64,000 bases of DNA from contig JANQFX010000118.1 of NCBI GenBank assembly GCA_028277725.1, positions 241 through 64,240 of the forward strand, given 5' to 3'. The notes beneath the pieces are model-generated. The model was not told the origin of the DNA, ran no database searches, and saw only the letters and a program-made list of their open reading frames with translations. Every line of letters starts with the position of its first letter. The stretch's first letter is position 1. The stretch is from Thiohalocapsa sp. (GTDB lineage: Bacteria > Pseudomonadota > Gammaproteobacteria > Chromatiales > Chromatiaceae). Shown here one piece after another: positions 11,255 to 59,469 of the stretch. The translations under genes were made by a program, and so were the position numbers.

Positions 11255-11926
11255 TCAGCCCCGACGCTGCGTCGCCAGCCGCTCGATGCGGGCGGCCAGG
11301 CGTTCGACGTCGTCGCGCGCGGTGTCGACCGCGGCGTAGAATGCCTGGAGTTCTGCACGGCTGGGCAGCACGGCAGCCTCCTGCTGGAGGTAGTCGCGCA
11401 GATTCTCGCGCGCGACGTCGCCGCTGCGATCGGCCCAGTCGCCGCCGGCGCGGGCGCGGGTCATGAGCCGGTGTGCCAGGGTGTCGCCCAGGAGCTTGGA
11501 AAGCAGCTCCTCCCAATCGATGTCGAGCGCGCGGAAGACCTCGCCGATGGCCTGGGCCACGCTGTTATCGCCGTCGATCTGGATGCCGCCCTCGAACACC
11601 GCGTCTTCGCGGTGTTCGGCCGTGACCATGGATAAGAGCGCGACCGGGCTGCCACGCACGATGCAATCCGGCTCGGCCTCGTAGTCGCCGTAGAGGAACA
11701 GCCTGGATTCGCCGGGCACCACGTAGACGCGGGTGCCGAATCCGGTGAGCTCCACCAGCAGCACCCGACCCTGCACGGCCTGAAGGCGGGCGGCGCCCTC
11801 GCGGTCCAACTCAAGCAGGGCGTTCACGGCGCCCTCGGCGGCCGCTAGCAGGGGATTGGGTACCGGGATGCCGGTGCCCTCCGAGGCGGTGCCGGCAGGG
11901 GCGTCGTCGTCGAATGCGTCGCTCAC
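11255..11926 (-). CDS. ubiJ: Ubiquinone biosynthesis accessory factor UbiJ (SCP2 domain)
   Basis: '[16 protein letters not shown]' and a C-terminal coiled coil. Lies between ubiE and ubiB. Confidence 0.9.
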
Positions 11927-47353: not shown

Positions 47354-48625
47354 TCAGAACTCGACGGCGAGCTGGGCCAGGATGCTGTCGGCGCTCTTGC
47401 CGGTTCCGCCGATATTCTCGAACTCGCCGTCCGCGTTGAGTTCGAGCTTCTCGTCGTAGTCGTTGTCGTGGCGGTACTGCAACGAGAAGGTGGTGTTATC
47501 GAAGACACCGATAGACCAACCCACCAGCAGGCTGTCCTTCGGCAGATCCAGGCCCAGGGCCTCGTCCGTGCCCTGATAGGCGATGGCGACGACGTTCTCG
47601 TAGCCACGCACCTCGAAGGTGTAGCCGGCTTCCAGGTTCCAGGCCGAGGGCTGGGCGCCCTTGTCGTGGTAGGACAGGCTGTCCGGGTCGAAGCGGTCGG
47701 CGGCGGACAGATACTCGCCGATCAGGTCGAAGCCGCGGTACGTGACCAGGAGGTTGGCGGTCCAGCCAGCGGTGCGGTCCAGCGGGTCGGTGCTGAAGGT
47801 ATCGGCCCGGGTGTCCTCGTCCTCGATCAGCTCCTCCAGGGTCGCGTTGCGGTTGTCGTTGACCGTGTCCTGGAGCGAGTCGGAATCGCCCAGGTCGTTG
47901 ATGTAACCGGCGCCGACACCGATGCCCCAGTCGTCATTCTCCCAGGCGTAGTTGAGGTTGGCACCCCAGCTGTCGATGCGGCTCTTGCCCTTGACCTTGT
48001 TGTCGCCGTTGAACGCGTACACGCTGCCGCCGAAGCCCTCGTAGACGAAGCCGAGCTGCGCGGCGGTCTCGCGGGTCTCGCCGATTTCGAGCGTCAGCGG
48101 GTCATCGATCAGGTTGGTCTCGTAGGCGCCGAAGGGCACGTAGAACTGGCCGGCGGTGAGGAACACCGGCGCGACGTCCGGGTTGTAGATGGTGATGAAA
48201 GCGAGGTCGACTTCCAGATCGGTGTCGTCTTCTTCATACAGCAGGGAGGCGCCGACCTCGACCCAATCCGTGACCTGGGAGGCGATGCCAAGCTCGAAGG
48301 TGGCCAGGACGATGTCGGACTCGGAGGGGCCATCGTAGGGCTCGAAGTAGCCCGCCTCCACCTCGATGAGGCCCGCGATCTCGATGCCCTCGAACCAGCC
48401 CGCGGCTTCGCCACGCTTCTTTTCGATGGCTTCGCCGAGCTTCTTGACGCGGCCGGGTGCACCTTCCAAGGCTTGCTTCTGTTCCGCCAGCTGGGTCGCC
48501 TGGCGGGCGTTCTCACGCTCCAATTGCTCGACGCGCTGTTCCAGGGTCATCTGAGCAACGGCCTGGGAGGAGGCCGCGCCGGCGATGGCGAGGGCGACGG
48601 CACCGGCGAGATGCTTGAGTTTCAT
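47354..48625 (-). CDS. LbtU-family outer-membrane (siderophore/iron) porin
   Basis: Signal peptide, N-terminal coiled coil, 'GLIEVEA', 'LLYEED', 'GQFYVPFGAYETNLIDDPLTLEIGETRE' and terminal Phe. Confidence 0.75.
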   Translation of the reverse strand: MKLKHLAGAVALAIAGAASSQAVAQMTLEQRVEQLERENARQATQLAEQKQALEGAPGRVKKLGEAIEKKRGEAAGWFEGIEIAGLIEVEAGYFEPYDGPSESDIVLATFELGIASQVTDWVEVGASLLYEEDDTDLEVDLAFITIYNPDVAPVFLTAGQFYVPFGAYETNLIDDPLTLEIGETRETAAQLGFVYEGFGGSVYAFNGDNKVKGKSRIDSWGANLNYAWENDDWGIGVGAGYINDLGDSDSLQDTVNDNRNATLEELIEDEDTRADTFSTDPLDRTAGWTANLLVTYRGFDLIGEYLSAADRFDPDSLSYHDKGAQPSAWNLEAGYTFEVRGYENVVAIAYQGTDEALGLDLPKDSLLVGWSIGVFDNTTFSLQYRHDNDYDEKLELNADGEFENIGGTGKSADSILAQLAVEF

Positions 48626-48664
48626 GTGCGTTCTCCAAGGATACAAGCGTTGTAAAAAAGCGTC

Positions 48665-48683
48665 ATAGGACAAATTGTCCTAT
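48665..48683. promoter_or_regulatory. Perfect 9-1-9 palindrome, putative operator
   Basis: ATAGGACAA-A-TTGTCCTAT lies 40 bp upstream of the porin start. Confidence 0.55.
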
Positions 48684-48761
48684 TAAAAGCACTAATGATA
48701 GTACGGACGTGTCGCATTTGCACGATGATTAAGGAGAAAACAACACAAAGACGCGGGGTGT

Positions 48762-48775
48762 TTGATCTTCGTCAA
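48762..48775. promoter_or_regulatory. Putative FNR/CRP-family box
   Basis: TTGATCTTCGTCAA has one mismatch to TTGAT-N4-ATCAA. Confidence 0.5.
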
Positions 48776-49172
48776 GGTTGGCCGTGGTGCCAAGTTGCGC
48801 TGTTGTGAAATGGCAACTCGAAAGCCTATCCCTTGTTCGCTTGCGCAGATCGCGCGAGCGGCTTGATTACGGCGGAGCCGTGTTCTCAAGTGTCGCTTTC
48901 AGGCAACTGATGAAGGGCCCGCATGCCCGTGCCGACGCGCGCGCGGGCGGGATGACAGAGCCAGTGCTTGCCGGCGTCCTGCTGTGTCTGATGTGGCACA
49001 GGCGGCCTTGATGGCACGCTCGCCGGTGCTGCGGCCGAGCGTCGGTGGCAGGGGCGCGGGGCGTTGAGGCCAAGCCAGGCGGGAACGCGCTGTCGAGTCG
49101 CGCCCAGGGCCGTCGTTGATGGGGCGCGCCGGCCGCCGAGAGGCGGCGGCCGCCGGCCCACGGTCGCGTGAC

Positions 49173-49961
49173 TTACAGATCGGCGGCGTTGATCCAGAGC
49201 ACCGCGTCCTGGGACAGCTCCTTGCCCTCATGCTCCGTCGCCGGGCCGGAGCCCAGGCAGGCGAATCCCCAGACGCCCGCGCGCGGGATGCCGAAGGTGA
49301 ACATGCCGTTGTCGTCGGTGATGGCCGAGACGGCGGTGGCCGGCGGATCGATTTGGGTGTCCTTGCCGAAGGCGTTGGCCTCCAGGTCGACGGCCGTGTT
49401 GATCCACTCGACCTCGCACTCGACGCCGCCGGCGGGTTTGCCATCGGAGAGCAGCTGACCGGTGAAGGTGCCGCCGGCGAAGACCTGGTAGGGCTTGTTC
49501 ATGGGCACGATCTCGGTGGCCAGCCCGAGGGGCTCGTTCCAGCCGGTGGGCATGGCGCCCTTGTTGACCATGGCCTTGGTGATCTGCTGGATGTAGATGT
49601 CTTCGGCGGATTCCATATAGGGTGCGGGCACGACGCCGAAGATATAGTCGCCGTTGCGGACGACCTTGTAGGCGGCGGTGTAGGCGTCGGCGGCCTCCTC
49701 GCCGGTGCCCTGCCATTTCACGGCCTGGAGGCTGTCCTTGAGGTCCGTCTTCTCGCCCTTGAAGACGACGAAGAACTCCTCCGGTTCGCCCATGTCCATG
49801 ACGTGGCCATTGTCCATCGGGTGGCCGAAGACCAGGGCGAGCGGGATCTCGCCCGGCTTCTCCAGCATGACCTCCGGCGTGTAGAGGAGCTGGAAGTGCG
49901 CCTGGGCGCCGCCGGCGATGGTGGTGGCCGCCGCCGCGGCGAGCAGGGTAGAGGTTTTCAT
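49173..49961 (-). CDS. DUF4198 domain periplasmic metal-binding protein
   Basis: Signal peptide AQA|HFQ, 'FGHP', 'PAPY.E..ED.YIQQITK', 'EIVP..KPY', 'G.WGFA' and 'QDAVLW'. Confidence 0.8.
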   Translation of the reverse strand: MKTSTLLAAAAATTIAGGAQAHFQLLYTPEVMLEKPGEIPLALVFGHPMDNGHVMDMGEPEEFFVVFKGEKTDLKDSLQAVKWQGTGEEAADAYTAAYKVVRNGDYIFGVVPAPYMESAEDIYIQQITKAMVNKGAMPTGWNEPLGLATEIVPMNKPYQVFAGGTFTGQLLSDGKPAGGVECEVEWINTAVDLEANAFGKDTQIDPPATAVSAITDDNGMFTFGIPRAGVWGFACLGSGPATEHEGKELSQDAVLWINAADL

Positions 49962-50194
49962 GTCGCGTGGTTCTCCGTGATGGGTGTGGTTGGCGGCCGG
50001 TCTGGCCTATCGGTGTTGAGTGGTCGGGTCGATGCGAACGGGTACCTGTCGGCCACGGTTGCAGACGGCCCAGGGGCAGATGGCACCTGAGTTGCCGTGT
50101 CCGACGTCGGGGAGCGGGGCTGGCGGCGGCTGGCCCCGCCGGGCGGCGCGATCGGGTGGGCCGATCGCGTGACCGGGATGGACGGTGCAGGGTG

Positions 50195-50509
50195 CTACTC
50201 GACGATGTCCTCGCCGGCGATCTCGACCTCATGGCCGGGGCCGGCGTCGAAGACCACCTTGTAGTCGCCATCGGGCTTGTCGAACTCGAACTCGCTCTGT
50301 TCGCTCATTTCGCCTTCGAGGATCGGGTTGCCACTGTCGTCCAGCACCCGAATGGCGACCCCGGCGGCGGACGAGCCATCGGAGAATCCGCCCTCGCACA
50401 GCACGGTACCGTCTCCCAGGTCGTAACAGGAACAGAGCGGCGTGTGGGCGAAGGCCACAGGGCAAAATAGCGCGGTGACGGCTAGGGCGCTGCGGAGTCG
50501 GTGTCTCAA
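50195..50509 (-). CDS. Small periplasmic protein, FpvJ/NikL-like
   Basis: AAGGAG RBS and TTG start; AFA|HTPLCSC...CEGGFSDGS...FDAGPGH. Confidence 0.7.
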   Translation of the reverse strand: MRHRLRSALAVTALFCPVAFAHTPLCSCYDLGDGTVLCEGGFSDGSSAAGVAIRVLDDSGNPILEGEMSEQSEFEFDKPDGDYKVVFDAGPGHEVEIAGEDIVE

Positions 50510-50609
50510 GGCGGTCTCCTTAGGAGGTGGGCTGAGGTCTGCTGTCGGCGCGGATGGGCCGACAGGCCGACGATCACCCCAGAGCTTACATGGCGATTGC
50601 TTGAGTGTA

Positions 50610-50628
50610 AATAGCAGTTATTCGCATT
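50610..50628. promoter_or_regulatory. Putative Fur box in the divergent promoter region
   Basis: AATAGCAGTTATTCGCATT (reverse AATGCGAATAACTGCTATT), flanked by TA...TA, between the two arms. Confidence 0.6.
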
Positions 50629-50868
50629 TACTTGATTGCCTTGTTCAGGTACAGTGTTTGCTGCACTGCATCCAACGCACTGAATGTCTGCCGTGGGCGC
50701 CAGCGGGCGCATCAGGTCGCGCGGACACGCATGCGCCATCCCACCGAACACGGGTAGCCACCGAATGTCCCACCCCGCCCACGCCACCTCGGATCGAGCC
50801 GACCCAGCCCTGGCACCGTCGCGCACGCGCGTTGACGCTTGCGCGATGGACTCCGGAGGTCTCGCGCC

Positions 50869-51126
50869 TTGAAGACGCTGAACGACATTGCACCAGGCGG
50901 GCGGGTTCGCATCCGCCGGCATCGATCCGACGGCGCCGTGCGTCAGCGGCTGCTGGACCTTGGCCTGATGCCGAACGTGGTCGTGACCGTCGTGCGCAGC
51001 GCGCCGCTCAACGATCCCATCGAACTCAAGCTCGATGCGTCCAATGTGTCCCTGAGGCGCCAGGAGGCGCGCACCATCGAGATCTCGCCGGTCGAGGCCG
51101 ACCCCGCGGAGTCCGGGCATGGCTGA
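50869..51126 (+). CDS. feoA: Ferrous iron transport protein A
   Basis: GGAGG RBS and TTG; 'RQRLLDLGL', 'APLNDPIE' and 'LRRQEA'. Confidence 0.9.
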   Translation: MKTLNDIAPGGRVRIRRHRSDGAVRQRLLDLGLMPNVVVTVVRSAPLNDPIELKLDASNVSLRRQEARTIEISPVEADPAESGHG

Positions 51127-53689
51127 GCAGCGATCCGACCAGCAGAAGGGACAATCCCAGGTGCTGGTGGCCCTGGCCGGGCAGCAGAACGCCGGCAAGT
51201 CCACCCTATTCAATGTCCTCACCGGCGCGCGGCAGCACGTCGCGAACTACCCGGGTGTGACCGTCGACAAGAAGTACGGGCTCTACACCGACGACGCGCT
51301 CAGGGTGCAGACGGTGGATCTGCCGGGCACCTATAGCCTGACCTCTTTCTCACTCGAGGAGCGGGTCGCGCGCGAGTTCCTGCTCGGCGAGCGTCCGGAC
51401 GTGACCGTCAACGTCGTCGACGCCTCCAACCTGCGCCGCTCGCTGCATCTGACCCTGCAGTTGCTGGAGTTGGAACTGCCCCTGGTGCTGGCGCTCAACA
51501 TGATGGATGTCGCCGCGGCCCAGGGCATCCGCGTGGACAAGGAGCAGATCGCCCGCAGGGTCGGTCTTCCGGTGGTGGCCACCGTCGGCCGCAAGGGCGA
51601 GGGGCGCGAGGCGCTGCGCGCCGCCATCCGCGCCGAGGCCGAGCGTCCTGCGCCGTCGCTGAACCAGGCGCCATCCCGGCAGGCCGAGGCCGCGCGGGCA
51701 GCCGTGGACTATGGTCCGTTGGAACCTGCGCTGGAACAGCTCACGACGGCTATCGCCGCGGAGCCGAGGCTGAACGACCTGCCGCGGCGCTGGCTCGCGT
51801 TGCAGCTATTGCAGGGAGACACCGCGGCTGTGCAGATGCTGGTGGGCCGCTTGGGCGACGACGACGCCCGGCCGCTGCGGGAGCAGGCGGGGCAATTGAT
51901 CCAGGCCTTCGAGCGGGAGCAGTCCATCGAGGTCTCCGACCACGTCGTGGCCCGCCGGGATCAGGCCGTGGAGCGGCTGCTGGACGGCGCGGTGGAGGGC
52001 GCGAGCGACGGCCGGCCGTCGATCACCGATCGCATCGATCGCTTCGTGCTGAACCGCTGGGTGGCGCCCTTCTTTTTGGTGGCGACGGTGTTCGCCATCT
52101 ATCAGGTGTCCATCGTCTGGGGCTACGAGATCACCAACTACACCTGGCCGTTGCTGGCCAAGTTCCGGGAGCTGGTCGCCGGCCTGCTGCCGACCGCGAA
52201 CTTCCTCGTCGACCCCTACGTCCGCTCCCTGGGGCTCTGGCTGGTGGATTCGGCCAATACCTTGCTCAACTATGTGCCGATCTTCCTGATCCTGTTCGCG
52301 TCCATCGCCATCATCGAGGACTCGGGTTACATGGCCCGGATCGCGTTCATCCTGGACAAGATCCTGCATCGCTTCGGCCTGCACGGACAGAGCACGCTGC
52401 CGTTGATCCTGGGCGGTGTCTTCGCCGGCGGCTGCGCCGTGCCCGGCGTCATGGCCACCAAGGGCATCCCGGATACCCGCGCGCGCATGGCGACCATCTT
52501 CACCGTGCCCTTCATGAACTGCCTCGCCAAGGTACCGCTCTATACGCTGCTGCTCGGCATCTTCTTCGTCGAGCACAAGTCGCTGATGATGTTCTATATT
52601 TCGACCATGACCATCATCTTCGCGCTCTTGGTGGCCAAGCTGCTGACGAAGACGGTGCTGCGCGGGCAGGAGACCTCGCCCTTCGTGATGGAGTTGCCGC
52701 ACTACCACCTGCCGACGGTCAGCGGCGTGCTGCGGCGCTCCTTCGAGCGCACCTGGCAGTACATCAAGAAGGTCGGCACCGTGGTGCTGGCCGTCGCCGT
52801 GGTGGTGTTCGCGCTGCTGCACCTGCCCGGTCTGTCGGCCGAGCGCAAGGCCGCCTACGAGGCGCAGGCGCAGGAGGCCGTGGAGCGTTTCGAGGCCGGT
52901 CTCGAGGGCAATGCCTATCGCGACATCGCCCTGGGCGCCAACCTGGTTCCGCTGGTGAATTACTTCACCGACTACAAACGCGCCAAGCTCAATGCCTCGG
53001 GCGCCGAGGCCTCGGCGCGGGTCGCCGAGCGCTTCGAGGCCCGCAACCCGGACTTCTACCCCTTGGTGAAGCCACCCAAGGGCGATCGCGACGCACGTGC
53101 CGCCTGGCGCGAGCTGCGCAAGCTGTCCCAGGCGCGGCAGGTGCTTCGCTCTGAGATGCGCAACGAGCGCATCACCACCTCCATCCTCGGCACCATCGGC
53201 CGCGCCATGGAACCGGTCACCCAGTTCGCGGGCTTCGACTGGAAGATCAACGTCGCGCTGCTGTCCTCCTTCGCCGCCCGCGAGAGCAGCGTCGCCACCC
53301 TGGGCGTGCTCTTCCAGCAGGACGACGATCAGAACGCGACCCTCGAGGAGCGAATGGGCGCCGAGGCACGCGCCGGCGGTGCCACCGCGCTCCTGGCGGT
53401 GTCCATGATCCTGTTCTTCGCGCTCTACCCGCCCTGTCTGGCCACGACCATCATGGTCAAGGTGCAGACCAACTCCTACAAATGGATGGTCTTCTCCATC
53501 GTCTTCCCGACCATCCTCGGGCTCGCGGTCGCCAGCGCTGTCTTCACCATCGGAACCGCCGTGGGTGCCACGGGCATCGAGGCCATGTCGGCGGTCTATT
53601 GGGGGGCCGCAGCGCTGCTGCTGATCGTCGGGTTGCTGAGCGACCGCAGCGCCAATCGGCAGATGCGCGAGCGCCTCGCCGAAACCTGA
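51119..53689 (+). CDS. feoB: Ferrous iron transport protein B (with a large soluble insertion)
   Basis: G1 GQQNAGKS, NYPGVT, DLPG, NMMD, EDSGYMAR, gate Cys motifs (GCAVP, FMNC, YPPC) and FAARE. Confidence 0.95.
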   Translation: MAEQRSDQQKGQSQVLVALAGQQNAGKSTLFNVLTGARQHVANYPGVTVDKKYGLYTDDALRVQTVDLPGTYSLTSFSLEERVAREFLLGERPDVTVNVVDASNLRRSLHLTLQLLELELPLVLALNMMDVAAAQGIRVDKEQIARRVGLPVVATVGRKGEGREALRAAIRAEAERPAPSLNQAPSRQAEAARAAVDYGPLEPALEQLTTAIAAEPRLNDLPRRWLALQLLQGDTAAVQMLVGRLGDDDARPLREQAGQLIQAFEREQSIEVSDHVVARRDQAVERLLDGAVEGASDGRPSITDRIDRFVLNRWVAPFFLVATVFAIYQVSIVWGYEITNYTWPLLAKFRELVAGLLPTANFLVDPYVRSLGLWLVDSANTLLNYVPIFLILFASIAIIEDSGYMARIAFILDKILHRFGLHGQSTLPLILGGVFAGGCAVPGVMATKGIPDTRARMATIFTVPFMNCLAKVPLYTLLLGIFFVEHKSLMMFYISTMTIIFALLVAKLLTKTVLRGQETSPFVMELPHYHLPTVSGVLRRSFERTWQYIKKVGTVVLAVAVVVFALLHLPGLSAERKAAYEAQAQEAVERFEAGLEGNAYRDIALGANLVPLVNYFTDYKRAKLNASGAEASARVAERFEARNPDFYPLVKPPKGDRDARAAWRELRKLSQARQVLRSEMRNERITTSILGTIGRAMEPVTQFAGFDWKINVALLSSFAARESSVATLGVLFQQDDDQNATLEERMGAEARAGGATALLAVSMILFFALYPPCLATTIMVKVQTNSYKWMVFSIVFPTILGLAVASAVFTIGTAVGATGIEAMSAVYWGAAALLLIVGLLSDRSANRQMRERLAET

Positions 53690-53710
53690 CCCACCACCGG
53701 AGCGCCGACC

Positions 53711-54025
53711 ATGACCGACAACGACATCCAAGCGGACGAGGTTCTGTTCCAGACCGAGGCCCAAGTCGCGCCGAGCGCGCCGGTCATCAGCGCCGAGGCC
53801 GGCATGGGCTGGGTCGACTGGGCCGTCATGGCCGCCGTGCTGGCAGCCGCCCTCTGGTACCTCTACAGGAGCTTCTGGGCCAATCGTGGGGCCTGTGGCG
53901 GCTGCTCCAAGGGCAAGGGCAAGGGCGGTTGCGCCGCGCAGCGCTCGGCCCGCGGTGACCAGCAAGCATCTGGGCAGGAGCCCGTACAGGTGGCCATCGA
54001 TCGCATTAGGCCAAGGGAGCGATGA
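53711..54025 (+). CDS. FeoB-associated Cys-rich membrane protein
   Basis: Single TM followed by CGGC...GGC; directly after feoB. Confidence 0.75.
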   Translation: MTDNDIQADEVLFQTEAQVAPSAPVISAEAGMGWVDWAVMAAVLAAALWYLYRSFWANRGACGGCSKGKGKGGCAAQRSARGDQQASGQEPVQVAIDRIRPRER

Positions 54026-54960
54026 TGGATCGAGCCGTCACGCTCGAGGCGGCCCGGGTCCGCCCGGAGGCGGATGGGACGCCCGCCATCGAAGTCCGGC
54101 ACCTGGCTCACCGCTACGGCAGCCGGTCGATCTACTCGGACCTGAGCTTCAGCGTGCCGGAGGGCCGGGTCGTTGCCCTGCTCGGCAAGAACGGCGTCGG
54201 CAAGACCACCCTGATCCGTCTGCTGATGGGGTATCTCAGGCCGGTGGGCGGGGCTTGCCGCGTGCTGGGTGAGCCGTCCCACAACCTCTCTCCGGCCACC
54301 CGGGCGCGCATCGGGCTGTTGTTCGAAGGCCACCTGGCCTACGACTTCATGAGCATCGCCGAGATCGAGCGCTTCTACCGACCCTTCTACCCGCGTTGGC
54401 GCCGGGAACTCTATTACGATCTGGTGGACCGGCTGCAACTGCCCTACGACCACAAGATCGGCAACATGTCCTGCGGCCAGCGTTCGCAGGTGGTGCTGGG
54501 GCTCATCTTCGCCCAAGACCCGGATCTGATGATCCTGGACGACTACTCGATGGGGCTGGATGCGGGTTATCGCCGCCTGTTCCTGGACTACCTGAAGCGC
54601 TATCTGGACCAGGGGGACAAAACCGTATTCGTGACCTCCCATGTGGTCCAGGACATGGAGTCGCTGGTGGACGACGTCATCTTTCTGCAGCGCGGCGGCG
54701 CCCTGATGCAGATGCCCCTGGCGGAGTTCCGTGCGCGCTTTCGCAGCTTTGGCTTTAGGTCGGAGGGTGGCGAGCCGCCACGACCCGACGGCGTCATCGA
54801 GGGCGTGGACCTGCACGGGCGCGAGCACCTGCTCTACAGCTTCGCGACCCCTGAGCGGCTCGCCGAGCACCTGGCACGTGCGTGGCCGGGAGTGCGTCTC
54901 GGAGAAGAGCGGCCCATGACCCTGGAGGACGCGTTCATTGGTCTGACGGGGAAGTACTGA
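54022..54960 (+). CDS. ABC transporter ATP-binding protein (exporter-type, non-canonical motifs)
   Basis: GKNGVGKT, signature MSCGQ, Walker B LMILDD, TSH and C-terminal TLEDAF. Confidence 0.88.
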   Translation: MMDRAVTLEAARVRPEADGTPAIEVRHLAHRYGSRSIYSDLSFSVPEGRVVALLGKNGVGKTTLIRLLMGYLRPVGGACRVLGEPSHNLSPATRARIGLLFEGHLAYDFMSIAEIERFYRPFYPRWRRELYYDLVDRLQLPYDHKIGNMSCGQRSQVVLGLIFAQDPDLMILDDYSMGLDAGYRRLFLDYLKRYLDQGDKTVFVTSHVVQDMESLVDDVIFLQRGGALMQMPLAEFRARFRSFGFRSEGGEPPRPDGVIEGVDLHGREHLLYSFATPERLAEHLARAWPGVRLGEERPMTLEDAFIGLTGKY

Positions 54961-54963
54961 TCC

Positions 54964-55629
54964 ATGCTGCGCGCGATGTTCCTCAAGGAATGGCTCAAGC
55001 TGCGGTGGGCGCTGCTCGGCCTGTTGCTGGTGCACGTCGCCATGCTGGCCTATCTGTTCCTGAGCGTCCGACACCAGTTCCAGGTCGAGCACTCGGAGAT
55101 GATCTGGTATTGGTCGTTCGAACTGCGCCGACTGCTCTACGATCAGGTGATGCTCTTGCCGGCCCTGACGGGCGCCGTCACTGCCGTGGCCCAATTCGGC
55201 CCTGAGATGGTCGGCGGGCGGTTTCGCTTGTCGTTGCATCTGCCTGTCCGCGGCGACCTGCTGGTCTGGTCCTGGGTCGCTGTCGGCGCCGGCGTGGGCG
55301 CGGTGCTGGCGGTACTGGACGCTGCCGGCCTGTACGGGATCATTGCGCTGTTCTTTCCCCGCGAGGCCGCGGCCAGCGCGGTGCTGACGGCACTGCCCTG
55401 GCTCCTCGGTGGCTGGGTCGCCTACTTCGGCACCACGCTGGTGCTGCTGGAGCCGGCGATGCGGCAGCGGGTCGTCTATCTGATGCTTGGGCTCGCCTTC
55501 CTGGGGCTGCTGTATCTGCAGCGTGGTTACCAGGAGTACGACCGGATACTGCCCGCCCTTGCCGCCCTGTCGCTGTTGTTCGTGCCGGCGGTGATCCTGC
55601 CCGCCCATCGCTATCGCCACCGGAGCTGA
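54964..55629 (+). CDS. Six-TM membrane protein, probable ABC permease
   Basis: 'FLKEWLKLRW' and 'QFGPE...RLSLHLP' with hydrophobic helices. Confidence 0.7.
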   Translation: MLRAMFLKEWLKLRWALLGLLLVHVAMLAYLFLSVRHQFQVEHSEMIWYWSFELRRLLYDQVMLLPALTGAVTAVAQFGPEMVGGRFRLSLHLPVRGDLLVWSWVAVGAGVGAVLAVLDAAGLYGIIALFFPREAAASAVLTALPWLLGGWVAYFGTTLVLLEPAMRQRVVYLMLGLAFLGLLYLQRGYQEYDRILPALAALSLLFVPAVILPAHRYRHRS

Positions 55630-55635
55630 GCCGAC

Positions 55636-56955
55636 ATGACCGCCCGCATCGCCCGCTGGTCCTTGTTGCTGCTCACCGTATTCCTGCTGGCGGTCTGGCT
55701 GCCCAGGGCCAAAGACCTGTTGTTCGAATACCGATTCGGCAAGACCGATCTGTTCTACAGCCCGGTCCTGGAGCGCTTCGTCTACAAGGAGCTACTCGGG
55801 GAGGGGCACCAGTTCGTCTATCGTGACCAGGATGGTCAGGACTACGGGCGCGAGGCCTTCGAGGCCCTGATCCCCTTCATCTATTACAAGAACATGGAGC
55901 TCTGGGGCAAGCTGCCGCTGGAGCTGGCCGGGCAACGCTTCGACAAGGCCGCCATTCAGGGCGAGCGCCTGGTGCTGCAGCTGGACCCGGACGAGCTGCC
56001 CGACCACAGACCGCGCATCCAGTTGTTCCCGCTGCTGGAGGCCAACCCCGGCCGGGCACGGCTGCGGTTCCCGGAGGACATCATGCGCCCGGGGGAGCGG
56101 CTCGGCTTCATCGGCTCGGACGCGAATCGCCTCGACCCCGAGCTGACCCGCAGCTTCTCGGAGGCCATGACCGAGGCCGGTTTCCGGTTTCCGGTGCGTA
56201 CGACCTTCGGCCGAGTCTCCATCTTGAAGCCCTTCGACGCCGGGTATTTCCTGGTCGACGACGACGGCAGACTGTTCCATCTCAAGCGCGTGGACAGCGA
56301 GCCCGTGGTGACACCCGTGCCGCTGCCCGAGGGGCTGGTCGTCCGCCATGTGAAGGTCACGGAGAACAAGCGGGGTGAGTTCCTGGGCCTGTTGCTCGCG
56401 CGGGACGGGCGACTGTTTCTGCTCGGCCAAGAGGACTACGCCCTGACCCCACTGCCGCTGCCGGACTACGATCCGGACCGGATGGCGCTCAAGATCCTGT
56501 TCAACCCCCTCAATCGCACCGCCATCTACTCAGACCGGACCGACGTCTTCGCGGTGGCCATGGACCGGGACTTTCGCCCCATCGACCGCTACCAGCGGGA
56601 GATGGCCATGGCCCGGCCGCGCCTCGTGGATCGGACTTGGGACGCCCTCCTGCCCTTCAGCCTGACGCTGCAGGACCCGAACAGCCGCTACCTGGCCCTG
56701 GACTTGCGCCTGCACGGACCGAGCGCTTTGGTGGGCCTGCTGCTCGCCCTGCTGCCGGCGTACTGGCTGTTGCGGCGCCGCGGCCTGCATGGCCTGGCCC
56801 CGATTCCCTCCCTGCTGTTTGTGGCGGTGACCGGCTTCTATGGACTGATCGCTCTGCTCCTGTTCCCGCCCGAGCGCAACCTTCAGCCGCAGAGGGCCAC
56901 GCATAGGACCGCCGGCGCTCCGCCCTTGGGTTCGGTCGTCGACGGCGGGCACTGA
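55636..56955 (+). CDS. DUF4857-like membrane-anchored protein with a large extracytoplasmic domain
   Basis: N-terminal TM, 'FYSPV', 'PLLE..P.R..L', 'KPFDAGYF' and two C-terminal TMs. Confidence 0.65.
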   Translation: MTARIARWSLLLLTVFLLAVWLPRAKDLLFEYRFGKTDLFYSPVLERFVYKELLGEGHQFVYRDQDGQDYGREAFEALIPFIYYKNMELWGKLPLELAGQRFDKAAIQGERLVLQLDPDELPDHRPRIQLFPLLEANPGRARLRFPEDIMRPGERLGFIGSDANRLDPELTRSFSEAMTEAGFRFPVRTTFGRVSILKPFDAGYFLVDDDGRLFHLKRVDSEPVVTPVPLPEGLVVRHVKVTENKRGEFLGLLLARDGRLFLLGQEDYALTPLPLPDYDPDRMALKILFNPLNRTAIYSDRTDVFAVAMDRDFRPIDRYQREMAMARPRLVDRTWDALLPFSLTLQDPNSRYLALDLRLHGPSALVGLLLALLPAYWLLRRRGLHGLAPIPSLLFVAVTGFYGLIALLLFPPERNLQPQRATHRTAGAPPLGSVVDGGH

Positions 56956-56974
56956 GCGGCGCGGGCGCGGCACC

Positions 56975-57661
56975 ATGCTCAGCCTATTCGGCAGCGGGCG
57001 GGAATCGAACAGCCCCTCGGTGCTGGTGGTGGTCGGCGTGCATCGTGAAGAGCGGGCATTCGGTGAGGCCGTTGCAGAGCGTCTGCCGAGGGATCGATTC
57101 GATCTGTTGCGCATCGAGCAGGGGCTTTGCAACCGGCGCCCCGGGCCGCACGAGCACGATGCCTACCGAGCGCGGCACCGCGCGCTCTACGCGCAGATCC
57201 TCGAACACATCCAGCCCGGTCATCGCGTGGTGCTCGACCTGCACACCGGCCTCGACGAGGCGGGTCCCAGCGCGGACGTGCTCTGTGCAGACCCTGGCCT
57301 GCTGCGCTGCGTCGAGCCTGGCGGCGGTGACGGGTCGGGGCAAGCCGGGTCCGTCGGCCTTCCCGTCGGCAAGGTCAGGGGGGTGCAGCTGGTGGGGGAT
57401 GAGCCCGCATCGTGCGGGATACAGGCGGCCGAGGTGTCGACCGATCCCGCATGCTCCGGCCGCTGGCCCCGGCTCAGGCCGGACATCCCGCGAGCCGTGT
57501 GGTGCGCTGGACCCCACCTCTATGCCGGCATCGAAGTCTATCTCTCGACGGCGGGCGACGCGCTCGACACCGATGTCGCCTTCGGTGCCGCCGTGGTCCT
57601 GACCGCTGCGGCCTGTGGACTTCGGCGCGCGGCAACGATCGAGCGAACCATCGACCGATAG
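56975..57661 (+). CDS. Hypothetical protein with M14/AstE-like Zn-hydrolase motifs
   Basis: 'VGVHREE' (HxxE), 'CNRR' and 'VLDLHTG'. Confidence 0.45.
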   Translation: MLSLFGSGRESNSPSVLVVVGVHREERAFGEAVAERLPRDRFDLLRIEQGLCNRRPGPHEHDAYRARHRALYAQILEHIQPGHRVVLDLHTGLDEAGPSADVLCADPGLLRCVEPGGGDGSGQAGSVGLPVGKVRGVQLVGDEPASCGIQAAEVSTDPACSGRWPRLRPDIPRAVWCAGPHLYAGIEVYLSTAGDALDTDVAFGAAVVLTAAACGLRRAATIERTIDR

Positions 57662-58027: not shown

Positions 58028-58341
58028 GGTGGAGACTCCGGTTGTGCTGGGGTACAGGGGTTCGACGGCGGGCAGCCGCGCTCCATTGTGCCACGATGGA
58101 TGTCCGTCGTTAACGGGGAAAGTGGGTCCGGCGCGCGGGATTTCGCGTCGGAATCCGATCTCCGACGGATTCAGCATAGGTGGCGCCCGCCAGCAGCGTC
58201 ATTGCGATCACACAATCGCCGTGCGGCGGGACCGGGATGGCCTGTAGGCTTGCGTTTTCGGCGACCATTCCGGCGACAGACCGTTCTGCGTGTCGCGCCC
58301 GCCCCCGACCGTCCAACCTCGGCCGACACTCGGCCCACGCC

Positions 58342-59469
58342 ATGCACGGATTCCAACTCTCGCGGCTCCTATTCTGGGCGGCCATCCTATTCCTCGCGTC
58401 CCTGGCGCTCAAGCCCTGGCTTGAAGACCTGTTCGTGCAGATGCGCGCGGAGCCACGCCCGGTGGAGGCGCGCGGCGAGCTGGCCGCGGACGAGCTGGCG
58501 ACCATCCGCATCTTCGAGACCGCGAGCCCCTCGGTGGTCTACATCGCCACCACCGGAGAGCTGTTGAGCCCCTGGGCACGGAACCTCATGGAGGTCCGCC
58601 AGGGGACCGGGTCCGGCATCGTTTGGGATCGGCAGGGCCACATCGTCACCAACTGGCACCTGTTGCAGGAGGCGCGCAGCGCCCGCGTCGCCCTCGCCGA
58701 CGGGCGCGCGTACAACGCCCAGTTCGTCGGCGCGAGCCCGGAGCACGACCTGGCCGTCTTGCGCATCGGTGCCTCGCCGGCCGGGCTTTCCCCGGTCATG
58801 CTCGGCACCAGCGCGGACCTGCGCGTCGGCCAGCGGGTGTTCGCCATCGGCAACCCCTTCGGCTTCGACTACAGCCTCACCACCGGCGTGGTCTCGGCCC
58901 TGGATCGCACCATACAGTCCGATCTCGCCGGTGAGATTCGCGGCCTGATCCAGACCGACGCGGCCATTAATCCGGGCAACTCCGGCGGCCCGCTGCTGGA
59001 CAGCGCGGCGCGCCTCATCGGCATTAACACCGCCATCTACAGCCCGTCCGGCAGCTTCACCGGCATCGGGTTCGCGGTGCCGGTGGATACGGTGAACCGG
59101 GTCGTGCCGCAGCTCCTTGCCCATGGCGAGTACGTGCGCCCGCGCATCGGCTTCCACGGCAACGACGCGGCCTCGGCGCGGCTGCTGGAAGAACTCGGCG
59201 TGCAGGGTGTGCTGGTGCTGCAGGTGGAACCGCGCTCGCCGGCGGACCGGGCCGGGCTGCGCGGGACCCGGGTGACGGGTTCCGGCGACATCATCCCCGG
59301 CGACATCGTCCAGCGGATCGACGACCGACCCGTCGTCTCCATGACGGAGCTGGTCGATCTGCTGGAGGGTTATCAGGTGGGCGACAAGGTGACGCTCCGC
59401 ATCCTGCGCGACGGCACGGTCCTGGACCTGGACCTGGTTCTGGGTGGGCGTTACGGTGAGTTGGATTGA
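58342..59469 (+). CDS. HtrA/DegP-family serine protease with one PDZ domain
   Basis: GTGSG, TNWH, DLAVL, IQTDAAINPGNSGG and a PDZ domain. Confidence 0.92.
   Translation: MHGFQLSRLLFWAAILFLASLALKPWLEDLFVQMRAEPRPVEARGELAADELATIRIFETASPSVVYIATTGELLSPWARNLMEVRQGTGSGIVWDRQGHIVTNWHLLQEARSARVALADGRAYNAQFVGASPEHDLAVLRIGASPAGLSPVMLGTSADLRVGQRVFAIGNPFGFDYSLTTGVVSALDRTIQSDLAGEIRGLIQTDAAINPGNSGGPLLDSAARLIGINTAIYSPSGSFTGIGFAVPVDTVNRVVPQLLAHGEYVRPRIGFHGNDAASARLLEELGVQGVLVLQVEPRSPADRAGLRGTRVTGSGDIIPGDIVQRIDDRPVVSMTELVDLLEGYQVGDKVTLRILRDGTVLDLDLVLGGRYGELD

What the first reader, a model, noticed from the sequence alone, without database searches (positions are those of the whole stretch)
47354..57661. Uncharacterised envelope-spanning iron acquisition system: porin, periplasmic proteins, enlarged FeoAB and an ABC-type complex
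Seen: two divergent arms share a Fur-like box at 50610. The left arm encodes an FpvJ/NikL-like protein, DUF4198 and an LbtU-like porin. The right arm encodes FeoA, FeoB, a Cys-rich protein, an ABC ATPase, a permease, a DUF4857-like protein and an M14-like hydrolase, with overlaps or gaps of about 22 bp or less. No TonB-dependent receptor, siderophore synthetase, classical solute-binding protein or CbiMQO/NikMQO core is present. Known: LbtU is the Legionella outer-membrane ferric-siderophore uptake protein that works without TonB, and FeoB imports Fe2+. Inference: a ten-gene TonB-independent pathway in which iron enters through the porin, is handled or released in the periplasm and is passed to FeoB, with the ABC/DUF4857 unit acting as an energiser or chelator exporter. 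It would feed the ferrosome-like cluster 12 kb away.
Basis: partly seen in the sequence, partly recalled or inferred. Interest (0 to 1): 0.8.

Follow-up and report, generated by a model that had tools for sequence, protein, structure and literature searches.

The report
Feo iron importer with periplasmic partners
A special long form of the ferrous-iron importer FeoB always travels with a small secreted histidine/cysteine protein and usually a second metal-binding protein, and often with an unstudied ATP-driven membrane machine, which suggests that iron is handed to FeoB by helpers outside the cell membrane.

Summary
All ten genes exist at the stated coordinates, and most labels hold by HMM. 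They are nested modules, not one fixed ten-gene system.

- **Core:** FeoA, a long FeoB with a 112-124 residue insert, and an 83-residue secreted protein with invariant His1, Cys7, Cys17 and His72. DUF4198 usually accompanies them. The small protein is 42% identical to the protein at the FpvJ position of a pyoverdine-type operon.
- **Co-occurrence:** in three genome samples (151 Chromatiaceae, 151 Desulfobacterales, 401 Pseudomonadota), every genome with the long FeoB has the small protein: 14 of 14, 21 of 21 and 3 of 3.
- **Optional module:** ABC ATPase, 6-TM permease and DUF4857. It sits beside the core in many lineages and has left deletion remnants in two genomes. Elsewhere it occurs fused, or with TonB-dependent receptors instead of Feo.
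- **Lineage-specific extras:** the LbtU-family porin, the Cys-rich peptide and the 228-aa protein.

"Fur-like" and "M14-like" are weak labels. No transport step has been shown. I found no paper describing the cluster. This scan met it before on other DNA (e1-5256556).

Verdict: a real, conserved and unstudied variant of Feo iron uptake.

The parts
47354..48673 (-). LbtU-family outer-membrane porin with an N-terminal coiled coil. The likely true start is the ATG at 48625. It is a lineage-specific accessory.
   Evidence: NF033652 scores 373.6 bits against a cut-off of 90. A homologue lies near the cluster in 10 of 80 genome loci. In a same-genus genome it is contiguous with DUF4198 and the small protein.
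48762..48775 (-). FNR/CRP-type palindrome TTGACGAAGATCAA upstream of the porin gene.
   Evidence: It is the only match to TTGAYN4ATCAA on either strand of the window. Function was not tested.
49173..49961 (-). DUF4198 periplasmic metal-binding protein, predicted to mature with an N-terminal His (AQA|HFQ).
   Evidence: PF10670 scores 186.8 bits. The AHF junction and the HPxExxH motif are each conserved in at least 90% of 53 orthologues. DUF4198 proteins bind Ni or Zn through His sites (PMC12537917, PMC12663993).
50195..50509 (-). Small secreted FpvJ/NikL-like protein, 83 residues when mature (HTPLCSC...). It is the component shared by both inner-membrane modules.
   Evidence: NF058648 scores 51 bits, below its cut-off. 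It is 42% identical (E 2e-27) to the FpvJ-position protein of an fpvGHJK-CDE-like operon. H22, C28, C38 and H93 are invariant in 63 of 63 sequences.
50607..50631 (.). Conserved AT-rich operator (GTAAATAGCAGTTATTCGCATTTAC) in the divergent promoter region, a possible Fur-type box.
   Evidence: It matches the E. coli Fur consensus at 10 of 19 positions. The same block is conserved in Thiohalocapsa and Halochromatium loci, and sister genera carry 15 of 19 boxes at the same promoter. It shares a TTCGCATT core with a 14 of 19 box between two flavodoxin-like genes (named from their N-terminal sequences, not HMM-tested) of the same genome.
50839..51126 (+). FeoA.
   Evidence: PF04023 scores 71.8 bits.
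51119..53689 (+). Long FeoB (856 aa) with G1 motif GQQNAGKS.
   Evidence: TIGR00437 scores 463.5 bits against a cut-off of 315.65. FeoB_N, Gate, FeoB_C and FeoB_Cyto domains are all found.
52844..53188 (+). FeoB insert (residues 576-690) between the FeoB_C region and the second Gate half. It is diagnostic of the cluster-linked FeoB subfamily.
   Evidence: The segment is 112-124 residues long in all 52 aligned sequences, the window's own FeoB and 51 cluster-linked ones. Genomes holding it are exactly, or a subset of, those holding the small protein. Its membrane side is not determined.
53711..54025 (+). FeoB-associated Cys-rich membrane peptide: one TM helix plus a CxxC...C motif.
   Evidence: PF12669 scores 23.2 bits, below its cut-off of 27. 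It is present in 14 of 80 loci.
54022..54960 (+). ABC ATPase of the ABC-2/ABCA/NosF type, with Walker B ILDDY (Asp in place of the catalytic Glu) and signature MSCGQ.
   Evidence: Closest solved relatives are ABCA3 (111 bits), EttA (90.5 bits) and ABCA7 (89 bits); NosF scores 78 bits. The motifs are conserved in at least 90% of 74 orthologues, apart from one Walker B position at 60-90%.
54964..55629 (+). 221-aa permease with about six hydrophobic segments. It has no Pfam family.
   Evidence: Hydropathy profile. It lies immediately upstream of DUF4857 in 77 of 80 loci. Natural fusions to DUF4857 exist. One of 19 orthologues hits ABC2_membrane_4 at E 3.4e-4.
55636..56955 (+). DUF4857 protein: an N-terminal TM helix, a soluble domain of about 330 residues and two C-terminal TM helices.
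   Evidence: PF16149 scores 276 bits. Hydropathy profile. The family has 649 50%-identity clusters. No solved or other-family structural relative was found.
56975..57661 (+). 228-aa protein in which the hydropathy scan finds no N-terminal hydrophobic segment, so probably cytoplasmic. It carries conserved HxxE and DLH motifs and is a lineage-specific accessory.
   Evidence: No family is significant; AstE_AspA_cat scores E 0.13. The motifs are conserved in 17 orthologues. It is present in 16 of 80 loci.

Best explanation
The locus is a modular ferrous-iron acquisition system built around a distinct FeoB subfamily.

**Core.** FeoA, a long FeoB with a 112-124 residue insert, a small secreted FpvJ/NikL-like protein (mature His1, Cys7, Cys17, His72) and the DUF4198 metal-binding protein.

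**Proposed working (inferred).** In anoxic, Fe(II)-rich habitats, Fe2+ reaches the periplasm. In this lineage it may enter through the LbtU-family porin. DUF4198 and/or the small protein capture it through their N-terminal His sites. The small protein then acts as an adaptor and hands the metal to the inner-membrane importer, much as FpvJ sits between the Fe2+-binding FpvC and the FpvG/FpvH membrane complex in Pseudomonas.

**Optional module.** The ABC ATPase, 6-TM permease and DUF4857 form one membrane complex with a large extracytoplasmic domain. This complex uses the same small protein. It either imports the metal in parallel with FeoB, or uses ATP to drive a periplasmic release or transfer step.

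**Shown here:** gene content, homologies, gene order, co-occurrence, the permease-DUF4857 fusions and module loss.

**Inferred:** the metal identity, all binding and handover steps, and the direction of transport by the ABC unit.
For: **Synteny**
- Of 80 loci around DUF4857 homologues from Chromatiaceae, Alphaproteobacteria, other Gammaproteobacteria, Desulfobacterota and SAR324, 37 have at least 8 kb on both sides.
- Among those 37: ABC 36, permease 36, small protein 33, FeoB 29, FeoA 28, DUF4198 27. All three of FeoB, DUF4198 and the small protein occur together in 26.
- At least five different gene orders are seen.

**Phyletic profiles**
- Chromatiaceae, 151 genomes: the FeoB insert is found in 14 (E <= 1e-29) and the small protein in 14. 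They are the same 14 genomes.
- Desulfobacterales, 151 genomes: insert-FeoB in 21 and DUF4857 in 8. All lie within the 24 genomes that have a close small-protein homologue.
- Pseudomonadota, 401 genomes: three genomes have the insert, and the same three have a close small-protein homologue next to it.

**Proteins**
- All 52 aligned FeoBs (the window's and 51 cluster-linked) carry the insert.
- The small protein is invariant at His1, Cys7, Cys17 and His72 in 63 of 63 sequences.
- It is 42% identical to the FpvJ-position protein.
- FpvJ is periplasmic and binds FpvC, FpvF, FpvG and FpvH (PMC6954188, passages).
- Permease-DUF4857 fusions exist.

**Iron link**
- B. thetaiotaomicron BT3625-33, which includes DUF4857 and an ABC ATPase, rises 37-128 fold under iron depletion (PMC10434189, passages).
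- Two related loci carry 15 of 19 Fur boxes at the feoA promoter.
- Ferrosome-type P1B-ATPases lie within 10 kb in 18 of 80 loci.
- DtxR-like (named from its sequence, not HMM-tested), flavodoxin-like (likewise) and TonB-dependent receptor-like (likewise) genes recur nearby.
Against: - No experiment or expression data exist for this locus; no RNA run holds it.
- The window's own 'Fur box' is weak, at 10 of 19.
- Characterised DUF4198 proteins bind Ni or Zn, not Fe, and the small protein also resembles NikL.
- NicO-type genes lie near 7 loci.
- The modules can live apart. In two genomes the small protein and DUF4198 are not next to feoAB. Five well-flanked loci have the ABC module without FeoB nearby. 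One locus has DUF4857 alone.
- 61 of 80 metagenome loci have the ABC module with none of the Feo partners.
- The ATPase belongs to families that are mostly exporters. It also lacks the canonical catalytic Glu.
- Genomes within a family are kin, so the co-occurrence counts overstate independence.
The membrane side of the FeoB insert, the fold of DUF4857 and any interfaces are therefore unknown.
Confidence: 0.55

Rival explanations
1. This is a nickel/cobalt system. The NikK-like (DUF4198) and NikL-like proteins feed an unconventional ABC importer (ATPase, permease, DUF4857) that replaces NikMQO. feoAB merely lies beside it.
For: - The NikL model hits the small protein at 51 bits.
- True NikL-length proteins are weak hits of the small protein in Desulfobacterales.
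- IsDUF4198 binds Ni2+ with Kd 18 nM and its family neighbours NikR and TonB receptors (PMC12537917).
- NicO-type genes lie in 7 loci.
- Some loci have only the small protein plus the ABC module.
Against: - The small protein tracks the long FeoB perfectly in three samples, also where no ABC module exists.
- It is much closer to the FpvJ-position protein of an iron pathway (105-111 bits with my family HMM, 42% identity) than to NikL (51 bits against a cut-off of 100).
- The genome has a separate full-length NikK/NikL pair elsewhere.
- DUF4857 operons are iron-starvation induced in B. thetaiotaomicron.
- No NikR-type gene was seen among recurrent neighbours.
Confidence: 0.12
2. The ABC/permease/DUF4857 unit is an exporter or envelope-maintenance machine, for example exporting a chelator, a reductant or excess metal. 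It is co-regulated with Feo but takes no part in metal import.
For: - The best ATPase matches are exporter or mechanotransducer families: PmtA, NodI, DrrA, GldA, ABCA and NosF.
- One of 19 permease orthologues hits ABC2_membrane_4.
- The module is dispensable in many long-FeoB genomes.
Against: - The clusters hold no biosynthetic genes for an exported compound.
- In the Bacteroidota-type loci (TonB-dependent receptor-like, lipoprotein, PepSY-like genes), and in the published list of BT3625-33 products, no other inner-membrane transporter is evident.
- All 8 genomes with the unit in the Desulfobacterales sample also have the secreted small protein.
Confidence: 0.18
3. There is no joint mechanism. 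Several independent iron-regulated operons (porin, periplasmic binders, Feo, ABC) simply cluster in an iron-homeostasis neighbourhood.
For: - Each module occurs without the others somewhere.
- The left arm is loosely spaced, and an FNR-like box upstream of the porin gene suggests it has a promoter of its own.
- fez clusters are already known to sit near assorted iron genes (bioRxiv 10.1101/2020.01.10.902569, passages).
Against: - The nesting is exact: no long FeoB without the small protein in 38 of 38 positive genomes across three samples.
- A FeoB-specific insert and G1 variant define the linked subfamily.
- Linkage is kept through at least five different gene orders and across phyla.
Confidence: 0.15

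Closest known systems
Canonical Feo system (FeoA-FeoB-FeoC of E. coli and Vibrio)
   Same: FeoA and a FeoB with a G-domain, helical domain, two Gate halves and FeoB_C. TIGR00437 scores above its cut-off.
   Different: - It scores below the E. coli-type model (NF007105, 359.8 bits against a cut-off of 683).
- It has a 112-124 residue insert and a GQxNxGKS G1 motif.
- No FeoC was seen among the ten genes.
- It is always accompanied by secreted partner proteins. The current literature states that no Feo protein is periplasmic (PMC11920956, passages).
FpvGHJK-FpvCDEF periplasmic iron-release machinery of Pseudomonas pyoverdine uptake
   Same: The small secreted protein is homologous to the protein at the FpvJ position: 42% identity, with the same His1, Cys, GGFSDGS and DAGPGH motifs. 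FpvJ is periplasmic and contacts an Fe2+-binding protein and membrane proteins (PMC6954188).
   Different: - There is no FpvG-type reductase, ZnuA-like FpvC, siderophore-binding FpvF or TonB-dependent receptor here.
- The partners are FeoB, DUF4198 and a DUF4857 ABC unit.
- The genomes that gave the comparison are unnamed. 'FpvJ' is assigned from the published gene order, fpvGHJKCDEF.
NikK/NikL accessory proteins of NikMQO-type (ECF) nickel/cobalt importers
   Same: A DUF4198 protein paired with a small N-terminal-His secreted protein, encoded next to an ATP-driven transporter.
   Different: - The NikL model scores below its cut-off and covers only its first half (positions 3-90 of 180).
- There is no CbiM/NikM or CbiQ.
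- The ATPase is not of the ECF type (TIGR04521, 82 bits against a cut-off of 330).
- A true NikK/NikL pair exists elsewhere in the genome.
'Anglerase' and DUF4198 N-terminal-His metal-capture proteins (signal-strapping study, PMC12537917) and the zinc-capture protein Zcp (PMC12663993)
   Same: These are secreted proteins that bind a transition metal through the mature N-terminal His and are proposed to feed permeases or buffer periplasmic metal.
   Different: Those proteins were shown to bind Ni, Cu or Zn and are linked to HupE/UreJ, TonB or NikR contexts. Neither paper mentions Feo: the word 'Feo' has 0 occurrences in PMC12537917 and 'FeoB' has 0 in PMC12663993.
ABC-2/type V systems with a periplasmic partner (NosDFY-NosL; GldAFG). 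The NosD, NosL and GldFG anatomy is recalled, not from a call.
   Same: An ATPase related to NosF and GldA, a small permease of about 6 TM segments, a large extracytoplasmic partner and a small secreted metal-type protein in the operon.
   Different: DUF4857 has no detectable similarity to any solved chain or other family. The permease has no family of its own. The function has not been tested.
Bacteroides thetaiotaomicron BT3625-BT3633 iron-starvation locus
   Same: It has the same DUF4857, hypothetical membrane protein and ABC ATPase trio, and is induced 37-128 fold by iron depletion (PMC10434189).
   Different: There it is joined to a TonB-dependent receptor, DUF4876 proteins and PepSY-TM proteins. 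It lacks Feo, DUF4198 and the small protein. The same pattern holds in 61 of 80 metagenome loci.
LbtU of Legionella pneumophila. Its role as a TonB-independent legiobactin receptor is recalled and matches the model's name.
   Same: The porin scores 373.6 bits on the LbtU family model.
   Different: No siderophore synthesis or export genes are present here. An N-terminal coiled coil is present. The porin accompanies only 10 of 80 related loci.

Membership tests
Feo ferrous iron transporter | FeoB with an N-terminal G-domain plus a Gate/FeoB_C membrane domain, scoring above the curated cut-off | tested here: met
   FeoB_N 201.1 bits, Gate 100 bits, FeoB_C 60.6 bits, FeoB_Cyto 42.2 bits. TIGR00437 scores 463.5 bits against a cut-off of 315.65.
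Feo ferrous iron transporter | An adjacent FeoA gene | tested here: met
   PF04023 scores 71.8 bits. FeoA overlaps feoB by 8 bp.
Feo ferrous iron transporter | E. coli-type FeoB (NF007105 equivalog) | tested here: not met
   359.8 bits against a cut-off of 683. The insert lies at residues 576-690.
Feo ferrous iron transporter | Fe2+ import activity | not testable with these tools
LbtU family siderophore porin | Match to NF033652 above its cut-off | tested here: met
   373.6 bits against a cut-off of 90, covering residues 96-439.
LbtU family siderophore porin | Linked siderophore synthesis or export genes | tested here: not met
   None among the ORFs between recJ and the HtrA-type protease gene.
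NikKLMQO nickel/cobalt ECF importer | NikL equivalog score | tested here: not met
   NF058648 scores 51 bits against a cut-off of 100 and covers model positions 3-90 of 180. A true NikL in the same genome scores 170.8 bits.
NikKLMQO nickel/cobalt ECF importer | NikM/CbiM, CbiQ and an ECF-type ATPase in the operon | tested here: not met
   No such Pfam family in any right-arm protein. The ECF ATPase models score 82 and 73 bits against cut-offs of 330 and 315.
NikKLMQO nickel/cobalt ECF importer | DUF4198 (NikK-type) periplasmic protein | tested here: met
   PF10670 scores 186.8 bits.
FpvGHJK iron-release complex | FpvJ-type small periplasmic protein | tested here: met
   42% identity, E 2e-27, to the protein between the FpvH-position and FpvK-position genes of an operon that continues with a ZnuA-like binding protein, an ABC ATPase and a permease. 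The naming follows the published gene order.
FpvGHJK iron-release complex | FpvG-type membrane reductase and an FpvC-type binding protein in the locus | tested here: not met
   Neither is among the ten genes.
ABC-2 / type V ABC transporter | ATPase of the ABC-2/ABCA/NosF group | tested here: met
   PDB best hits are ABCA3 at 111 bits and NosF at 78 bits. NCBIfam best hits are PmtA, NodI, DrrA and GldA, all below their equivalog cut-offs.
ABC-2 / type V ABC transporter | Permease belonging to an ABC-2 membrane family | tested here: inconclusive
   The window protein hits 0 families. One of 19 orthologues hits ABC2_membrane_4 at E 3.4e-4. A profile against PDB gives no hit. Size and hydropathy fit six TM segments.
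ABC-2 / type V ABC transporter | Canonical catalytic Glu after Walker B | tested here: not met
   The motif ILDDY is conserved in 74 orthologues, in at least 90% of them at all but one position.
DUF4857 (PF16149) | Match above the gathering score | tested here: met
   276 bits against a cut-off of 25.
M14 / AstE-AspA zinc hydrolases | Significant family match | tested here: not met
   AstE_AspA_cat scores E 0.13, 12.2 bits against a cut-off of 25.
M14 / AstE-AspA zinc hydrolases | HxxE ... H metal-ligand motifs | tested here: inconclusive
   G.HReE and DLH.G are conserved in 17 orthologues. No fold was available.
Fur regulon | Fur box upstream | tested here: inconclusive
   The window site matches at 10 of 19. 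Orthologous promoters L012 and L016 match at 15 of 19. The operator is conserved. A PWM built from these sites finds no second copy in the genome.

The most novel reading that the evidence does not exclude
The long FeoB is the first Feo transporter that depends on dedicated periplasmic partners. An FpvJ-like His/Cys adaptor and a DUF4198 Fe2+ binder would deliver ferrous iron to it. The permease-DUF4857-ATPase complex is a new class of ATP-driven iron machine. It plugs into either this Feo route (Proteobacteria, Desulfobacterota) or TonB-dependent receptor routes (Bacteroidota type), and in many anaerobes it supplies nearby ferrosome loading.
Probability: 0.33. Interest if true: 0.85.

Novelty: new variant of a known kind. 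Interest (0 to 1): 0.68.

Why it matters
Feo is the main ferrous-iron importer of anaerobic and host-associated bacteria. Its mechanism is still unclear, and it is currently described as having no periplasmic component (PMC11920956).

- **A testable route to FeoB.** A FeoB subfamily that never occurs without a small secreted His/Cys protein, and usually has a DUF4198 protein too, gives a direct way to ask how Fe2+ reaches FeoB.
- **A function for FpvJ.** It suggests a role for FpvJ, whose function in pyoverdine iron release is unknown (PMC6954188).
- **An iron context for two unknown families.** DUF4857 and its partner permease gain an iron context. They are among the most strongly iron-starvation-induced genes of a gut Bacteroides (PMC10434189).
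- **A possible supply route for ferrosomes.** The recurrent closeness to ferrosome genes points to how these iron-storage organelles may be supplied.

Tried and rejected
- As a result there is no fold of DUF4857, the permease, the 228-aa protein or the FeoB insert.
- There are also no complex models and no precomputed neighbour annotation.

**Searches that gave nothing useful**
- Profile of DUF4857 against solved structures: only chance hits, E >= 0.5.
- Permease against solved structures, as a single sequence and as a profile: nothing.
- ESM Atlas with homologue P0026: only DUF4857 clusters, by features and by structure.
- FeoB against PDB: only N-terminal domains, so there is no template for the insert's membrane side. 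I leave that side undetermined. The insert has about equal numbers of basic and acidic residues, and a conserved RKxLRRE lies next to the following hydrophobic segment. This leans towards the cytoplasm.

**Fur box**
- The E. coli consensus gives no site above 13 of 19 in the window and none above 14 of 19 in the genome.
- A PWM of the conserved operator finds only itself in the genome.
- I therefore reject the label 'clear Fur box' and keep 'conserved operator, Fur-like'.

**Promoter, terminator and expression**
- The promoter/terminator scan found 0 promoters. It found 5 terminator-like sites against 5.5 expected, which is not informative.
- No RNA holder is listed for this DNA. The four DNA holders come from one coral-metagenome study.

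**Literature**
- Searches: 'DUF4857' (2 papers), 'DUF4198' (17), 'NikK'+'NikL' (noisy), 'FeoB'+'genomic neighborhood'+'ABC transporter'+'FeoA' (1, unrelated), 'LbtU' (mostly unrelated), 'ferrosome'+'FeoB' (5), FeoB topology terms (3), 'FpvJ'+'FpvG' (11).
- None describes this cluster.
- Supplementary tables of the ferrosome preprint (neighbour lists) and of the DUF4198 papers (neighbourhood networks) were closed. They may list these genes.

**Ideas rejected**
- DUF4857 as a second ABC-2 half-permease: it has only three hydrophobic segments.
- The small protein as a universal partner of DUF4857: 61 of 80 metagenome loci lack it.

**Rows dropped**
- In the alignments, ORFs cut by a locus end were left out.
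- tblastn hits above E 1e-5 were ignored, so divergent DUF4198 paralogues are undercounted.

Full report
**Observation**

The window has 63-72% G+C, and third-position GC separates real genes from shadow ORFs. Ten genes lie between recJ (44808-46556) and an HtrA-type protease gene (58180-59469).

The minus-strand arm holds three genes.
- An LbtU-family porin (NF033652, 373.6 bits against a cut-off of 90).
- A DUF4198 protein (186.8 bits).
- A 104-aa secreted protein. Its only family hit is the NikL model, at 51 bits and below the cut-off of 100.

The plus-strand arm holds seven genes.
- FeoA.
- An 856-aa FeoB (TIGR00437, 463.5 bits).
- A Cys-rich one-helix peptide (PF12669, 23.2 bits, just below its cut-off).
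- An ABC ATPase.
- A 221-aa membrane protein with no family.
- DUF4857 (276 bits).
- A 228-aa protein with no family.

The right arm is packed at -8 to +21 bp. The left arm has gaps of 233 and 499 bp.

Two labels are soft. The 'Fur-like box' matches the E. coli consensus at 10 of 19 positions, which chance gives hundreds of times in this window. 'M14-like' rests on E = 0.13, plus HxxE and DLH motifs conserved in 17 orthologues.

**Is the arrangement conserved?**

I aligned 25 DUF4857 homologues and fetched 80 genome loci with up to 10 kb of flank. They come from Chromatiaceae, Cohaesibacter, Pseudovibrio, Rhodovulum, Roseospira, Marinobacterium, Hahella, many Desulfobacterota and a SAR324 genome.

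tblastn with the window's proteins found these counts.

| Component | All 80 loci | 37 loci with >= 8 kb on both sides |
|---|---|---|
| Permease | 77 | 36 |
| ATPase | 76 | 36 |
| Small protein | 64 | 33 |
| FeoB | 53 | 29 |
| DUF4198 | 53 | 27 |
| FeoA | 51 | 28 |
| 228-aa protein | 16 | 12 |
| Cys-rich peptide | 14 | 12 |
| Porin | 10 | 7 |

All three of FeoB, DUF4198 and the small protein occur together in 26 of the 37 well-flanked loci.

Gene order varies.
- Divergent arms, as in this window.
- One co-linear operon, feoA-feoB-small-DUF4198-ABC-permease-DUF4857, in most Desulfobacterota.
- The reverse block order in a Rhodospirillales genome.
- small-DUF4198-ABC-permease-DUF4857 without Feo in Rhodovulum.
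- small-ABC-permease-DUF4857 in Roseospira.

Linkage that survives this much rearrangement across phyla argues for function, not chance.

**Which parts depend on which?**

*Chromatiaceae, 151 genomes.*
- DUF4857 scores above its cut-off in 9.
- The FeoB insert (residues 576-690 used as query) hits 14 at E <= 1e-29, plus 2 weak hits.
- The mature small protein hits 14. These are the same 14 genomes.

*Desulfobacterales, 151 genomes.*
- Close small-protein homologues (E <= 1e-18) occur in 24.
- Insert-FeoB occurs in 21, all among the 24. In 20 of those 21 it lies within about 1.5 kb of the small gene.
- DUF4857 occurs in 8, all among the 24. Two of the 8 lack insert-FeoB.

*Pseudomonadota, 401 genomes.*
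- Three genomes have the insert.
- The same three have a close small-protein homologue beside it.

Kin are not independent, so these are not probabilities. Even so, no exception was seen in 38 positive genomes.

Fetched regions show the ABC unit decaying.
- One complete genome keeps DUF4198 and the small protein divergent from feoA-feoB-Cys, followed by a 25-residue DUF4857 remnant.
- Another keeps FeoB, a DUF4857 fragment (residues 148-400) and the 228-aa gene.
- Two others have no trace of the unit.
- A same-genus genome has porin-DUF4198-small on one contig and feoA-feoB-Cys on another. Some of its bases are withheld.
- One locus (L013) has DUF4857 alone.

The stable core is therefore FeoA, long FeoB and the small protein, usually with DUF4198. 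The ABC unit is an add-on, and the small protein is the component shared by both.

**The proteins**

*FeoB.* All 52 aligned FeoBs, the window's and 51 cluster-linked ones, have the 112-124 residue segment and the GQxNxGKS G1 motif. The window's genome also has an ordinary 617-aa FeoB elsewhere.

*Small protein.*
- It is the most conserved component, at 43-85% identity across phyla.
- H22 (mature His1), C28, C38, H93 and a DGSSA motif are invariant in 63 of 63 sequences.
- It has no Pfam family, and sources call its relatives 'hypothetical' or 'carboxypeptidase regulatory-like'. This covers the 120 listed of 1,525 homologous clusters.
- Five Pseudomonas-like genomes hold a 39-44% identical homologue.
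- In the two I fetched, it sits between a 400-aa and a 179-aa gene on one side and a 186-aa gene on the other. A ZnuA-like binding protein, an ABC ATPase and a permease follow. This is the published fpvGHJKCDEF order.
- FpvJ is periplasmic and of unknown function. It binds FpvC, FpvF, FpvG and FpvH (PMC6954188, passages read).

*DUF4198.* It keeps the AHF maturation junction and an HPxExxH motif. Characterised members bind Ni2+ or Zn2+ through His sites (PMC12537917 and PMC12663993, passages read).

*ATPase.*
- It is closest to ABCA transporters and NosF among solved chains.
- It is closest to PmtA, NodI, DrrA and GldA among NCBIfam models.
- Across 74 orthologues it carries ILDDY in place of the Walker B Asp-Glu, and MSCGQ as its signature.

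*Permease.* It has about six hydrophobic segments with basic termini.

*DUF4857.* It has one N-terminal and two C-terminal hydrophobic segments around a soluble domain of about 330 residues.

*Fusions.*
- A whole-library profile search found 649 family clusters.
- Among the 150 best-listed hits, six are proteins of 546-663 residues whose first ~230 residues precede the DUF4857 match. In the two I compared, that N-terminal part aligns with the permease, at E 8e-22 and 6e-31.
- A 44% G+C gammaproteobacterial genome has the same fusion in a full cluster.
- The two proteins are therefore one membrane unit.
- If the permease ends in the cytoplasm, as its basic C-terminus suggests, the DUF4857 domain is extracytoplasmic. 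This is an inference.

No solved or other-family structural relative of DUF4857 was found.

**Other contexts of the ABC unit**

A metagenome scan seeded with the fused forms gave 80 loci.
- 13 carry the small protein. The counts for FeoB (13) and DUF4198 (11) mostly fall in the same loci.
- 61 carry only ATPase-permease-DUF4857.
- Recurrent neighbours in those 61 are a TonB-dependent receptor-like protein (named from its N-terminal sequence, not HMM-tested) (28 loci), a 377-aa lipoprotein (23 loci) and PepSY-like proteins.

This matches B. thetaiotaomicron BT3625-33, which is induced 37-128 fold by iron depletion (PMC10434189, passages read).

**Iron or another metal?**

For iron:
- The Feo linkage.
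- The FpvJ relationship.
- The Bacteroides induction.
- 15 of 19 Fur boxes at the feoA promoter of two related genera.
- A conserved operator at the same place in this window. It shares a TTCGCATT core with a 14 of 19 box between two flavodoxin-like genes (named from their N-terminal sequences, not HMM-tested) of the same genome.
- Recurrent DtxR-like (named from its sequence, not HMM-tested), flavodoxin-like (likewise), siderophore-type ABC ATPase (likewise) and TonB-dependent receptor-like (likewise) neighbours.
- Homologues of the window's ferrosome-type P1B-ATPase within 10 kb in 18 of 80 loci, and in 13 of the 37 well-flanked ones. Eleven are at 40% identity or more.

The ferrosome preprint already noted that fez clusters sit near FeoA, FeoB and some ABC transporters (bioRxiv 10.1101/2020.01.10.902569, passages read).

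For nickel or cobalt:
- The NikK/NikL resemblance.
- NicO-type neighbours in 7 loci.
- The measured Ni and Zn preference of DUF4198 proteins.

The genome has a separate full-length NikK/NikL pair next to cydAB-like genes (named from their sequences, not HMM-tested). On balance I judge iron the likelier metal, but this has not been shown.

**Mechanism**

The most economical reading is a periplasmic capture-and-handover step in front of a specialised FeoB. DUF4198 would be the binder and the FpvJ-like protein the adaptor. The permease-DUF4857-ATPase complex would be an optional second acceptor, or an ATP-driven helper that uses the same adaptor.

In this lineage the LbtU-family porin may be the outer-membrane entry. 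An FNR-like box, unique in the window, lies upstream of the porin gene and suggests it has a promoter of its own.

Only the anatomy, homologies and co-occurrence are shown. Every binding, transfer and transport step is inferred.

**Novelty**

I found no paper that describes this cluster; the searches are listed under Tried and rejected. A 2025 paper states that no Feo protein is periplasmic and that FeoB may need no auxiliary periplasmic protein (PMC11920956, passages read).

The scan itself met the same cluster on other DNA. A follow-up (e1-5256556) reached the same reading, and several first-reader notes describe Feo-linked His1 proteins. My profiles, the fusion evidence, the decay remnants, the FpvJ link and the Bacteroidota-type context were derived here independently.

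I class it as a new variant of a known kind, namely Feo. It contains two protein families without known function.

Noticed in passing
window 54022-54960: The ABC ATPase has Asp in place of the catalytic Glu (ILDDY), Cys in the signature motif (MSCGQ) and Glu at the usual Q-loop position (LLFEGH). The first two motifs are conserved in at least 90% of 74 orthologues, apart from one Walker B position at 60-90%. This suggests slow or regulated ATP turnover.
   Followed up: partly
window 48762-48775 and 48665-48683: An FNR-type palindrome, unique in the window, lies upstream of the porin gene. A perfect 8-bp-stem hairpin sits just before its start codon. The porin therefore probably has its own, possibly oxygen-responsive, promoter.
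   Followed up: partly
G000 contig C14:98463-100113: The genome has a second DUF4198 gene followed by a full-length NikL (170.8 bits). This pair lies next to cydAB-like (cytochrome bd) genes (named from their sequences, not HMM-tested), not next to NikMQO.
   Followed up: partly
G000 contig C25:40134-41764 and 52621-54474: Two divergent flavodoxin-like genes (named from their N-terminal sequences, not HMM-tested) share a 14 of 19 Fur-type box. An ordinary 617-aa FeoB lies 11 kb away at the contig end.
   Followed up: partly
L095 (G025) 10877-10951; L102 (G133) 10548-11324: Deletion remnants of DUF4857 lie directly after feoB-Cys in two Chromatiaceae genomes. One is 25 residues long; the other covers residues 148-400 with the ATPase and permease gone.
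   Followed up: yes
P0141, P0171, P0183, P0194, P0230, P0264; L185 5789-7405: Natural single-chain fusions of the 221-aa-type permease with DUF4857.
   Followed up: yes
L074-L081 (Desulfovibrionaceae), L185: Two paralogues of the small His1 protein lie in one cluster, flanking DUF4198. Ten Desulfobacterota loci add a second DUF4198 gene right after DUF4857.
   Followed up: partly
L019 (Rhabdochromatium marinum): Here the ABC unit and the DUF4198/small-protein pair sit next to a ferrosome-type cluster (P1B-ATPase, HMA_2 protein, FeoA-domain gene) and an LbtU-like porin, in the place of feoAB. A DUF1007 gene follows DUF4857.
   Followed up: partly
window 54964-55629: The permease family keeps His, Glu and Met-containing motifs (HxEMxWY in the first loop, QFxPEM...RxRLSLHLP after the second hydrophobic segment) in 77 orthologues. 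These could be metal ligands.
   Followed up: no
window 49962-50194 and 48674-49172: The left arm has unusually long non-coding gaps of 233 and 499 bp, in contrast with the tightly packed right arm. No gene passed the GC3 filter there.
   Followed up: no
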